From positions 10,368,001 to 10,432,000 of the forward strand of contig CP086569.2 in the NCBI GenBank assembly GCA_009914755.4: 64,000 bases of DNA, given 5' to 3'. The stretch comes from the human T2T-CHM13v2.0 reference genome, Homo sapiens. The notes under the pieces are model-generated. The model was not told the origin of the DNA. It searched no databases and worked only from the letters and a program-made list of their open reading frames with translations. Both the position numbers and the translations under genes were made by a program. Of the stretch, positions 17,499 to 19,872 are shown in pieces (within the stretch, counting starts at the first letter, position 1; each line of letters opens with the position of its first letter).

Positions 17499-18836
17499 CC
17501 TTAATAGTGTTTATTTTTCATTCCATAAAATCCAAGTTTAACCCCTCTTCCTGTCTGCGTTTTTTTGTGCCTGGATCTGTTTTTCCTTTAGGTCGTGTGC
17601 ATAAGACCATACTGAGTACTGACATCCTGCATACTGTAGTAACTTTGTAGGAGTTCTGCTGTTTCAGGTAAAGCCTGATGCTCCATCATATTCATCTCAA
17701 AATCCAGAAGTCCCCTAGAGAAACACAAACGCATGTCAAAATGCATTTCCTCTGAGCCATAATTTAAAATGTTTTAATTTTAGGTCCTGCTGAGTAAAGA
17801 CTACCCCTTTCCCACTTTTGATCTCTTAAACTTCGTCCTACCATGTGTTACAAACTGTTCTCTGCAATACCTGCTCCATTCCCAGTATACTCTGTGATGG
17901 GATTCAGCTAACAAGATGCATTGTTCACAAAAAGCACACCGAATCATCAGGCAGTAGCTTAAGAAAATCCATCAATCTAAACAGTCTTGTGTGGTTTGTG
18001 GCAAGGATGACAAAGAGGCACATTCAGGGAGTTAAATCTTAAGGGGTTGATAGGATGACTGCCAGTGGGGCTGACAGCCATGGAATCAAGTGCCACAAAT
18101 TGAAGTTAATGATTCAGCTTTACCTCTCAGTGAATCTGGACATGGACTATACTTCTCTGGGCTTAAGACTCCACAGTTATAACCTGCTATGCAGTGTAGT
18201 CTCTAAAGTGCCTTTTTCAGCTCAATGCCCTGAATGTCCTGGATTCTGTCCCTCTCTGTCTTCCTCTCAAGGAATTTCCACATTTATGAAATAAGCCTCA
18301 ATTTCTACATTTCTGAAATGAGAGTCCAGGCTCCCTGAATAGTGAGGGGTGTCAACTCCCTCATAGTGGGCATCAAACAGCTCCAGTTCCAACTGAATGG
18401 CTTACCTGAAATCTCTGTTCCCTCTTCAGGTGGCTTCATCCTCTTGTAGTATTGCAGGGGATTGTGCCACAGGTCCTTACATAGGATCTGTCAGGGGAAT
18501 CAATTGGGAAAGGCCTCATCAGGGCTCAGACTGGTGACCTAAGCAGCTGGGAACACACCAGGTCATTCCTGATGTTTCCCGGTGAGGATGCACCTCAGCA
18601 ATCCTATTAGGTCCTGTGAAGTTGTGGTCAGAAAACCAGTTGAAGAAGTTAAGGCTGCTATTGTGGTGTCTGGGTCAATAAGTCTCAACTTCATAATCTG
18701 GATACTACTGAATTGGAGTGGAATGAGAAGCCCTGTATTCTACAGAGAGGATTTTATGTGAAGAGGGCTGGATCACATTGGCAATTATCCACCCATCATC
18801 TTCCTTCCACTACCCATCCTGGAAGCCACTTGTCAC

Positions 18837-18948
18837 CTGTGACATTCCCAAGATATTCCTTGGTCACCATTTTATTCTGGAAGTAGGGGTTACTCCAAAA
18901 TAACAACATGATCTTGCAGAGATGAATGGGATGTTTCACTTCTTTCAC
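18837..18948 (-). CDS. Exon-like open segment (acceptor ttgttctgacAG|, donor |GTgaca) encoding [37 protein letters not shown]. It is phase-compatible with the upstream exon-like segment at 19077-19173.
   Basis: It has canonical splice signals, an open frame and phase continuity with the neighbour. Further candidate segments at 18594-18739 and about 18400-18480 are open but phase-inconsistent, which is pseudogene-like. Confidence 0.3.
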
Positions 18949-19076
18949 CTGTCAGAACAAGGTGGAGAAAGCTTAAACATCTTTTTGGGTGAGGTGCCCA
19001 CTGTTGCTTACAGGAATGAATTATTTCCCTTACCCTCCCCCACTAAACCCTCTAGCCTCAGTCTTCCCAGCCTCAC

Positions 19077-19173
19077 CTCCAAGTTGATCACGTAGCTCAG
19101 CATGTCTTCATCTTGGTCACTGATCAGGGCTGATATCAAGAGGTGGTTTGCCATCTGCTTTAGGTCAAAGAGC
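19077..19173 (-). CDS. Exon-like open segment with a canonical acceptor (..ttccattgcatctaaAG|) and donor (|GTgagg). It encodes ...LFDLKQMANHLLISALISDQDEDMLSYVINLE.
   Basis: The open frame is bounded by a polypyrimidine tract plus AG on one side and GTGAGG on the other, on the minus strand. The protein family is not recognised. It may be a gene or pseudogene fragment. Confidence 0.3.
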
Positions 19174-19872
19174 CTTTAGATGCAATGGAAGGAAAAGTTA
19201 GAAGCAAGAGGGAAGAAGACCTAGAGCACCCAGAGGCTTGGGTAAGGAATTTCTAAGATCTGCTTCCATGTATGACCTCCCTTTCTACTCTACCTCCCCC
19301 TGAATTAAGGCCTCTTGGGCTCATGGAGTGCATATAATTCTGAGGCTGACTGCACTGACACACGGAGGGGTGACTTGGGAAGAGTCGCTGGCGTCTGAGG
19401 AGTGGCAGAATATGCTTATAACCGAAGACGCCCATTCCCAGATCGGACTGGCAAGGGGCAGCAATCACACTCCCTTAACAATAGCTTGATTCACAGAAAA
19501 ACCTGTTCTGGTGAGAACTCGCTTCTGCTCTCCAAAAAGATGCCCCAAACGTCTGCTGCTTGGCATCACGAAGGGTTTCTCTGCCGCATGCAGGAAAATA
19601 ATACCCACGCCTGCTCCAGTTTACTACAGCCACATTTGTCCACGGCAACTCACTGTTGTTCCCCAAATAATCACATCGACGCCGAGCTGCCCATCAGTTA
19701 CTTACACTTCCCCAAGAGCACCTCTCAACTAGAAAGGCAGAAGAAATACTGAAAAGGTTACAACATTGGCCCAGCAGCCAGGGATGTTCTGGATGATGGC
19801 GCCTGTGCAGTACAGGCGCGGCTTGTGCCTCCTCTCCAGCTTTTCCCACTGCTGAGAAAAGGCCTTCCTGGC

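What the first reader, a model, noticed from the sequence alone, without database searches (positions are those of the whole stretch)
18400..19175. Cluster of exon-like open segments with canonical splice signals on the minus strand (unidentified gene or pseudogene fragment)
Segment 19077-19173 has a polypyrimidine-AG acceptor and a GTGAGG donor, and encodes LFDLKQMANHLLISALISDQDEDMLSYVINLE. Segment 18837-18948 has an AG acceptor and a GTGACA donor, and encodes [37 protein letters not shown]. The two are phase-compatible. Two further open segments (18594-18739 encoding [48 protein letters not shown], and about 18400-18480 encoding [27 protein letters not shown] with a GTAAGC donor) have good splice signals but inconsistent phase. 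This looks like the partially decayed copy typical of pericentromeric segmental-duplication pseudogenes. These segments lie in otherwise unique sequence.
Basis: inference. Interest (0 to 1): 0.5.

Follow-up and report, generated by a model that had tools for sequence, protein, structure and literature searches.

The report
Decayed TSPY pseudogene beside alpha satellite
The exon-like segments are exons 2-5 of a complete but dead copy of the testis-specific Y-linked gene TSPY, still carrying its introns, inside an old piece of a TSPY repeat unit next to centromeric satellite DNA; this is an ordinary, already known kind of pseudogene.

Summary
The four segments are real and far beyond chance. They are exons 2, 3, 4 and 5 of a six-exon, intron-containing copy of TSPY (NAP domain, Pfam PF00956) on the minus strand, 20268-17692. 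The best protein hits are primate TSPYs (E=4e-131, 72-77% identity). A 4.2-kb block (promoter, exons, introns, 3' flank) is collinear with macaque, orangutan and marmoset Y-linked TSPY at 76-84% identity. The start codon, all ten splice dinucleotides, the exon phases and the final stop are conserved. The canonical frame carries four premature stops: two in exon 1 and two in exon 4. Lineage-specific substitutions look neutral, and the CpG island has decayed. So it is an unprocessed pseudogene.

Three details were wrong:
- Exon 4 was read in the +1 frame, which is open in all five primate TSPY copies compared.
- The phases are in fact consistent.
- "LFDLKQ" is intron 1.

The copy branches near the base of the catarrhine TSPY radiation. 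It sits in a ~12-kb relic of a TSPY repeat unit (9615-21942) cut off by alpha satellite. Unprocessed TSPY pseudogenes are already catalogued in human and chimpanzee. Low interest.

The parts
9615..21942 (.). Relic of about one circularly permuted TSPY repeat unit. It is bounded on the right by alpha satellite and interrupted by insertions at 12845-13974 and 16225-16885.
   Evidence: blastn: window 11412-21360 is collinear with orangutan L004 13679-4796 at 84-87%. Window 9615-10932 matches sequence upstream of TSPY in orangutan (L004 4013-2710) and macaque (L001 8685-7836).
16786..20975 (-). Core block collinear with macaque Y-linked TSPY: promoter, 6 exons, 5 introns and ~0.9 kb of 3' flank.
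   Evidence: blastn: 82.5% identity over 4271 nt to L001 9259-13487; 84.2% to orangutan and 76% to marmoset.
19762..20268 (-). Exon 1 (ATG at 20268-20266; donor GTAACC). It contains two premature stops and a hexamer expansion.
   Evidence: Alignment to macaque TSPY; tblastn; splice table.
20230..20232 (-). Premature stop 1 (TAA, codon 13).
20014..20055 (-). (GTGGAG)7 run. It is an in-frame 30-nt expansion relative to the other four primate copies ([15 protein letters not shown]).
19873..19875 (-). Premature stop 2 (TGA, codon 132; CGA in macaque).
19077..19154 (-). Exon 2 (acceptor cAG at 19157-19155; donor GTGAGG).
18837..18948 (-). Exon 3 (NAP-domain core ...SNPYFQNK...). It ends in phase 1; donor GTGACA.
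18594..18739 (-). Exon 4 (acceptor tAG, donor GTGCAT). The canonical frame has two stops.
18705..18707 (-). Premature stop 3 (TAG; TGG Trp in the other primates).
18675..18677 (-). Premature stop 4 (TGA; an Arg codon in the other primates).
18406..18487 (-). Exon 5 (acceptor cAG, donor GTAAGC at 18405-18400).
17692..17714 (-). Coding part of exon 6, with the stop TGA (17694-17692) at the orthologous position.
20269..20975 (-). 5' flank / promoter region homologous to the TSPY promoter. It is a decayed CpG island: CpG observed/expected is 0.33 for promoter plus exon 1.
21218..21523 (+). Exon-1-like piece of a much older, inverted TSPY-like relic lying head-to-head with the pseudogene. It lies inside ORF 20834-21553.
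   Evidence: tblastn: 47-53% aa identity; collinear with marmoset L005 4532-4918.
9901..10364 (+). Exon 3-, 4- and 5-like pieces of the same kind of old inverted TSPY-like relic, belonging to the neighbouring unit. They contain stops.
   Evidence: tblastn, E~3e-8; homologous pieces in orangutan (L004 3749-3282) and marmoset (L005 13367-13061).
21943..31619 (.). Alpha-satellite array of 171-bp monomers (~80% matches) that truncates the TSPY-unit relic.
   Evidence: junction sequence.

Best explanation
The finding is the middle (exons 2-5) of a full-length, unprocessed pseudogene of TSPY, the testis-specific Y-encoded protein of the NAP/SET nucleosome-assembly-protein family.

A piece of about 12 kb from an ancestral TSPY tandem array, roughly one repeat unit, became stranded next to alpha satellite (inferred from the layout). 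Outside the array it no longer took part in the gene conversion that homogenises array copies (inferred from established knowledge of TSPY arrays). It then drifted neutrally. It kept the ATG, all splice sites and the reading frame by chance, but acquired four nonsense codons and a 30-nt in-frame repeat expansion, and it lost about half of its promoter CpGs.

It branches near the base of the catarrhine TSPY radiation, so it is tens of millions of years old. It has no protein-coding function. At most it may be transcribed as a non-coding RNA, which was not tested here.
For: Identity of the gene:
- The NAP domain scores above Pfam's curated cut-off (50.2 bits against 28.6).
- The best hits in a 5.8-billion-protein database are primate TSPYs (E=3.9e-131 to 1e-100, 72-77% identity). 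TSPYL proteins reach only ~38-46%.

Unprocessed copy:
- A collinear 4.2-kb DNA alignment covers introns, promoter and 3' flank against macaque (82.5%), orangutan (84.2%) and marmoset (76%) Y-linked TSPY.
- The exon/intron boundaries and phases are identical in all five sequences.

Dead copy:
- There are four in-frame premature stops.
- Substitutions specific to the window lineage are 15 synonymous, 47 nonsynonymous and 3 nonsense, spread evenly over codon positions (21/24/20). Macaque TSPY shows 11/23/0 with second positions depleted (14/7/13).
- Exons (85-96%) are hardly better conserved than introns (84-90%).
- CpG observed/expected is 0.33, against 0.52-0.68 in the other copies.

Age:
- K2P distance is 0.151 to orangutan, 0.171 to macaque and 0.247 to marmoset, while orangutan-macaque is 0.160.
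- The window copy falls outside the sampled catarrhine copies in 224 of 300 bootstraps.
- The protein tree places it at the catarrhine base.

Context:
- The TSPY-unit homology spans 9615-21942 and ends at alpha satellite.

Literature:
- Unprocessed TSPY pseudogenes are catalogued: 5 in human and 21 in chimpanzee (PMC3924835).
- Most human TSPY pseudogenes form a branch outside all coding TSPYs, even with orangutan and gibbon as outgroups (10.1101/2022.12.01.518724).
Against: - There are no frameshifts in 948 nt of CDS, and every splice site is retained. That is somewhat more intact than expected after long neutral decay, although four nonsense codons make a full-length product impossible.
- The species and chromosome of the window could not be determined with the tools available, so Y linkage and the identity of the annotated pseudogene are inferred, not shown.
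- The orangutan comparator (L004) has itself lost its ATG and carries stops in exon 1. The DNA tree therefore lacks a bona fide functional ape gene, and the dating is approximate.
- Transcription was not testable.
Confidence: 0.95

Rival explanations
1. The locus is a transcribed pseudogene that still yields a short protein. Translation would start at the exon-2 ATG (an Ile-to-Met change). An alternative acceptor 7 nt inside exon 4 (the frame the reader saw) would bypass both exon-4 stops, giving a ~126-aa ORF: MANHLL...GNVTGLLIPLQFSS...[21 protein letters not shown].
For: The spliced alternative ORF is open in silico. The same +1 frame is used by a predicted human TSPY2 isoform (P0017). All splice sites are intact.
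Against: The +1 frame of exon 4 is open in all five primate copies, so its openness is inherited and not maintained here. A random 48-codon frame of this composition is open 6% of the time. Substitutions look neutral. The CpG island has decayed. The product would lack most of the NAP fold. Two stops lie upstream in exon 1.
Confidence: 0.02
2. The locus is a non-coding but functional transcript: a testis lncRNA, or an antisense partner of the head-to-head relic. It would be retained because of promoter activity and not for coding.
For: The promoter homology, the ATG and all splice signals are retained. TSPY units are reported to carry a second, antisense transcription unit, CYorf16 (PMC3954084; PMC6280758). 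A 239-aa ORF runs antisense through the promoter (20834-21553).
Against: There is no evidence of constraint anywhere in the block: flanks are 81-84%, introns 84-90% and exons 85-96% identical, and the coding changes are neutral. CpG is depleted. The ORF has no Pfam match. Expression data are not available.
Confidence: 0.05
3. The segments are chance ORFs with chance splice-like signals in unique sequence.
For: None after testing.
Against: HMMER E=3.9e-131 to TSPY; Pfam NAP above the gathering score; 4.2-kb collinear DNA homology to three primate TSPY loci.
Confidence: 0
4. It is a copy of a different NAP-family gene (autosomal or X-linked TSPYL1-6/TSPX, NAP1L, SET), or a processed retro-pseudogene.
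For: It shares the NAP domain.
Against: TSPYL proteins are only ~38-46% identical, against 72-77% for TSPY. Five introns are retained at the TSPY positions, so it is not processed. The non-coding flanks match Y-linked TSPY repeat units.
Confidence: 0.01

Closest known systems
Unprocessed, high-divergence TSPY pseudogenes of the human and ape Y chromosomes (the HGNC TSPYnnP series; that naming is from my own knowledge)
   Same: It has the six-exon TSPY structure with introns and is disabled by point mutations. It lies outside the homogenised array. It branches outside all protein-coding ape TSPYs, as reported for most human TSPY pseudogenes. It belongs to the class counted as 5 in human and 21 in chimpanzee.
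   Different: I could not establish which annotated pseudogene, species or chromosome this is. The closest annotated protein, human hCG95817 (P0014), is only 82% identical over the region compared, so it comes from a different locus.
Functional TSPY1/TSPY2 array genes (DYZ5, 20.4-kb units)
   Same: Same gene family, exon phases, splice sites, ATG and stop positions. The flanking unit sequence is homologous, including the head-to-head antisense relic.
   Different: Four premature stops, a neutral substitution pattern, a decayed CpG island, only ~72-77% protein identity, and a single relic unit abutting alpha satellite instead of a tandem array.
Autosomal and X-linked TSPY-like genes (TSPYL1-6, TSPX)
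   Same: NAP domain (PF00956).
   Different: Much lower identity (~38-46%). The non-coding flanks of the window copy match Y-linked TSPY units, not these genes.

Membership tests
NAP/SET nucleosome assembly protein family (Pfam PF00956) | The NAP domain is detectable above the curated gathering score. | tested here: met
   50.2 bits against a cut-off of 28.6 for the conceptual protein; 38.3 bits for exons 2+3 alone.
TSPY gene family (as opposed to TSPYL or other NAP genes) | Closest similarity is to TSPY proteins and not to TSPYL, NAP1L or SET. | tested here: met
   The top ~60 hits are TSPY or TSPY-like Y-encoded proteins, with primates at 72-77% identity and E down to 3.9e-131. TSPYL1/2/4 reach ~38-46%.
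TSPY gene family | Six-exon structure with the TSPY intron positions and phases. | tested here: met
   All boundaries align with macaque, Nasalis, orangutan and marmoset TSPY. All GT/AG dinucleotides are conserved. Phases are 0/0, 0/0, 0/1, 1/0, 0/1, 1/0.
TSPY gene family | The gene is embedded in TSPY repeat-unit sequence, with non-coding homology beyond the gene. | tested here: met
   Window 9615-21942 is collinear with orangutan, marmoset and macaque Y TSPY loci, including spacer and upstream relic.
TSPY gene family | Y-chromosomal location and testis-specific expression. | not testable with these tools
   No primate reference genome or expression data can be searched here. All comparator loci are on Y-chromosome records, except the Nasalis locus L003, which is on a 117-Mb record.
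Functional (protein-coding) TSPY | An uninterrupted reading frame under purifying selection. | tested here: not met
   Four premature stops. Lineage-specific changes are 15 synonymous, 47 nonsynonymous and 3 nonsense, evenly spread over codon positions.
Unprocessed (duplicated) pseudogene | Introns and promoter are retained, disabling mutations are present, and evolution is neutral. | tested here: met
Pericentromeric segmental duplication | Adjacency to centromeric satellite. | tested here: met
   Alpha satellite (171-bp period) at 21943-38936, starting 419 bp beyond the last TSPY-related sequence.
Pericentromeric segmental duplication | A paralogous copy of at least 1 kb at 90% identity or more elsewhere in the same genome. 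| not testable with these tools
   The source genome is not available. The best identity to any fetched TSPY locus is 84-87%, and those loci come from other species.

The most novel reading that the evidence does not exclude
The most novel reading that remains open has two parts. First, the locus could still be transcribed in testis and, through the alternative exon-4 acceptor, encode a ~126-aa truncated NAP-fragment protein from the exon-2 ATG. Second, and separately, the ancient inverted TSPY-like relic that lies head-to-head with TSPY in marmoset, orangutan and this window could be a conserved functional antisense partner (possibly what was named CYorf16), with its origin as a TSPY paralogue not widely recognised.
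Probability: 0.03. Interest if true: 0.4.

Novelty: already known. Interest (0 to 1): 0.12.

Why it matters
It matters little beyond correct annotation. Naming the gene explains the exon-like segments and shows that the 'inconsistent phase' came from reading exon 4 in the wrong frame. It also shows that the window's left half is a stranded relic of a TSPY repeat unit abutting alpha satellite. Such old, non-homogenised TSPY copies are modestly useful as molecular fossils. They preserve the state of the TSPY unit from near the base of the catarrhines, including the head-to-head inverted TSPY-like relic. They can also confound copy-number assays or read mapping for the medically relevant TSPY array.

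Tried and rejected
- A mirrored second TSPY copy in the GC-rich block at 40-44 kb, suggested by the composition profile and the inverted alpha-satellite arrays. Self-BLAST found none. That block instead holds 5S-rRNA-like elements.
- Fetching human TSPY genomic DNA. Look-ups of P0003, P0017, P0014 and the gibbon protein P0007 found nothing on record. The DNA comparisons therefore rest on macaque, Nasalis, orangutan and marmoset.
- Treating the orangutan locus L004 as a functional ape reference. It has CTG instead of ATG and stops in exon 1, so it is itself a divergent copy and the dating is only approximate.
- Pfam support for the antisense ORF 20834-21553 and for the old inverted relic. There was none. 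The evidence for the relic is tblastn plus conserved position.
- Literature searches for this specific pseudogene next to alpha satellite. Only general statements on TSPY pseudogenes were found.
- Chance ORFs, a processed pseudogene and a TSPYL or other NAP gene were rejected.

Full report
**1. The observation**

On the minus strand of 18200-19400 the four segments and their peptides are present as described:
- MANHLLISALISDQDEDMLSYVINLE at 19154-19077.
- VKEVKH...GNVT at 18948-18838.
- NTGLL...IGLL at 18739-18596.
- ILCKDL...EIS at 18487-18407.

The donors GTGAGG, GTGACA and GTAAGC are there. The window itself is primate pericentromeric DNA. Tandem Repeats Finder reports 171-bp alpha satellite at 21943-31619 and, in the opposite orientation, at 31621-38936.

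**2. What it is**

*Protein evidence.* A conceptual protein assembled from the open segments plus an upstream open stretch matches the Pfam NAP domain (PF00956) at 50.2 bits, against a gathering cut-off of 28.6. Against 5.8 billion proteins, the best hits are all primate testis-specific Y-encoded proteins: Macaca E=3.9e-131 at 73% identity, human TSPY8-like at 72%, Cebus at 77%. TSPY-like (TSPYL) proteins are only ~38-46% identical. No hit approaches 100%, so this locus is not annotated as a protein anywhere in that collection.

*DNA evidence.* I fetched genomic TSPY loci from the macaque Y (L001/L002), Nasalis (L003), the orangutan T2T Y (L004) and the marmoset Y (L005). Window 16786-20975 (minus strand) is collinear with macaque TSPY over 4271 nt at 82.5% identity. 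The block covers ~0.7 kb of promoter, six exons, five introns and ~0.9 kb of 3' flank. The same block is 84.2% identical to orangutan and ~76% to marmoset.

**3. Anatomy**

Projecting the macaque gene model onto the window gives:

| Exon | Window coordinates (minus strand) | Notes |
|---|---|---|
| 1 | 20268-19762 | ATG at 20268-20266 |
| 2 | 19154-19077 | |
| 3 | 18948-18837 | |
| 4 | 18739-18594 | |
| 5 | 18487-18406 | |
| 6 (coding part) | 17714-17692 | stop TGA at the orthologous position |

All five GT donors and five AG acceptors are conserved in all five species. The exon phases (0/0, 0/0, 0/1, 1/0, 0/1, 1/0) are mutually consistent, and the spliced CDS is 948 nt, in frame.

Three corrections apply:
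- The true acceptor of exon 2 is cAG at 19157-19155. 'LFDLKQ' is the end of intron 1. The same intronic string is read through in a Nasalis gene prediction (P0008).
- Exon 3 ends in phase 1. Exon 4 therefore reads G|AA TAC AGG = E-Y-R..., and not AAT ACA GGG = N-T-G.
- In the canonical frame exon 4 carries two stops, so the 'inconsistent phase' came from choosing the only open frame. That +1 frame is open in all five primates' exon 4 and is used by a predicted human isoform (P0017). A shuffled 48-codon frame of the same composition is open 6% of the time.

**4. State of the gene**

The canonical frame has four premature stops:
- TAA at 20232-20230 (codon 13)
- TGA at 19875-19873 (codon 132; CGA in macaque)
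- TAG at 18707-18705 (Trp in the other primates)
- TGA at 18677-18675 (Arg in the other primates)

It also has an in-frame 30-nt expansion of a GTGGAG repeat at 20055-20014. There are no frameshifts.

I polarised substitutions with marmoset as the outgroup:

| Lineage | Synonymous | Nonsynonymous | Nonsense | Changes at codon positions 1/2/3 |
|---|---|---|---|---|
| Window copy | 15 | 47 | 3 | 21/24/20 |
| Macaque TSPY | 11 | 23 | 0 | 14/7/13 |

The even spread over codon positions in the window copy is the neutral pattern. Macaque is depleted at second positions. Exons (85-96% identity to macaque) are hardly better conserved than introns (84-90%) or flanks (81-84%). The promoter/exon-1 CpG island has decayed: CpG observed/expected is 0.33, against 0.52-0.68 in the other primates. 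This is an unprocessed pseudogene that has been evolving without constraint.

**5. Age and relationships**

Over 3807 ungapped aligned sites, the K2P distances are:

| Pair | K2P |
|---|---|
| window - orangutan | 0.151 |
| window - macaque | 0.171 |
| window - marmoset | 0.247 |
| orangutan - macaque | 0.160 |

In neighbour-joining bootstraps the window copy falls outside (orangutan + Old World monkeys) 224 times out of 300, and is sister to orangutan 73 times out of 300.

The orangutan locus is itself a divergent copy: it has CTG instead of ATG and stops in exon 1. I therefore also built a protein tree with bona fide human, chimpanzee, orangutan, gibbon, macaque, colobine, New World monkey, loris and colugo TSPYs. 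The window copy joins at the base of the catarrhine radiation, after the platyrrhine split, and its position is unresolved. Its highest identity is 82%, to human hCG95817.

This agrees with the T2T-Y report that all but one of the human TSPY pseudogenes fall on a branch separate from all protein-coding copies, even with orangutan and gibbon as outgroups (10.1101/2022.12.01.518724).

**6. Context**

The TSPY homology is much larger than the gene. Window 11412-21360 is collinear with the orangutan locus up to the end of the DNA I held (84-87% identity). It is interrupted by window-specific insertions at 12845-13974 and 16225-16885. From my reading of the ORF at 13203-13601, the first insertion looks like LINE-1 ORF2, but Pfam gave no support for that.

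Window 9615-10932 matches sequence that lies just upstream of TSPY in orangutan and macaque. Together, 9615-21942 amounts to about one circularly permuted TSPY repeat unit. That is what a piece cut out of a tandem array looks like. It ends at alpha satellite at 21943.

I infer the mechanism as follows. A unit from an ancestral TSPY array was stranded beside centromeric satellite. There it escaped the array's homogenisation by gene conversion and unequal exchange, and it decayed. This step is inferred from the layout and from what is established about TSPY arrays (PMC3924835; 10.1101/2022.12.01.518658). It is not shown directly here.

**7. Comparison with what is known**

Unprocessed TSPY pseudogenes are a catalogued class: five in the older human reference, 21 in chimpanzee (PMC3924835), and additional ones in T2T-Y. 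High-divergence copies outside the array are also noted in the population assemblies.

The locus passes every testable membership criterion for a TSPY-family unprocessed pseudogene. It fails the criterion for a functional gene (an intact ORF under constraint). I could not test Y linkage, expression, or which annotated pseudogene it is, because no primate reference genome can be searched with these tools.

**8. Verdict**

The feature is ordinary and of a known kind, so interest is low.

The only mildly unusual points are these:
- The gene architecture is perfectly preserved (no frameshift, all splice sites) despite clearly neutral evolution.
- A much older inverted TSPY-like relic lies head-to-head with TSPY in the repeat unit. 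It is conserved in position in marmoset, orangutan and this window. It may correspond to the 'CYorf16' antisense transcription unit mentioned in the literature. I did not verify that link.

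Noticed in passing
window 21218-21523 (+) and 9901-10364 (+); L004 3749-3282 (-); L005 4865-4581 (-) and 13367-13061 (-): A second, far older TSPY-like relic (34-60% aa identity to TSPY; exon 1-, 3-, 4- and 5-like pieces at TSPY-like spacing) lies inverted and head-to-head with TSPY inside the repeat unit. It is conserved in position in marmoset, orangutan and this window. 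In the window it is split across the unit boundary and cut off by alpha satellite. It may be what the literature calls the antisense CYorf16 unit; that link is not verified.
   Followed up: partly
window 20834-21553 (+): A 239-aa ORF runs antisense through the TSPY promoter region and ends in the exon-1-like piece of the old relic. It has no Pfam match.
   Followed up: partly
window 21943-31619 and 31621-38936: Two alpha-satellite blocks (171-bp monomers) in opposite orientation meet at ~31620. The left one has ~80% matches between monomers. The right one has 72-74% and a 342-bp dimeric periodicity. The GC skew flips sign there.
   Followed up: no
window 41527-41645 (-) and 43992-44110 (-), within the GC-rich block ~39.3-44.6 kb: Two full-length but diverged 5S rRNA matches (Rfam RF00001, 59.5 and 55.8 bits) lie 2465 bp apart in a degenerate tandem of ~1.3-2.4-kb GC-rich units. 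They look like a decayed 5S-rDNA-like cluster next to the alpha satellite.
   Followed up: partly
window 20014-20055 (-): A (GTGGAG)7 run in exon 1 is a 30-nt in-frame expansion relative to the other four primate TSPY copies. It gives a [15 protein letters not shown] stretch.
   Followed up: yes
window 12845-13974 and 61167-61649: The ORFs at 13203-13601 (+) and 61167-61649 (-) look like LINE-1 ORF2 fragments; this is my reading of the translations and has no Pfam support. The first lies in an insertion that interrupts the TSPY-unit relic relative to orangutan.
   Followed up: no
window 5129-5435 and 55568-55860: ~300-bp elements that match many places in all the primate loci fetched. They are presumably Alu-type SINEs, but were not classified.
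   Followed up: no
L004 5881-7717 (orangutan T2T Y, annotated TSPY8-like, P0012): The orangutan copy used as comparator has CTG in place of the ATG and in-frame stops in exon 1. It is annotated as coding from an internal Met, and in the protein tree it sits on a long branch with the Old World monkeys. It may be a pseudogene or a divergent paralogue.
   Followed up: partly
window 1-4000: Strong positive GC skew (+0.34 to +0.36) with no tandem repeat detected. The nature of this sequence was not determined.
   Followed up: no
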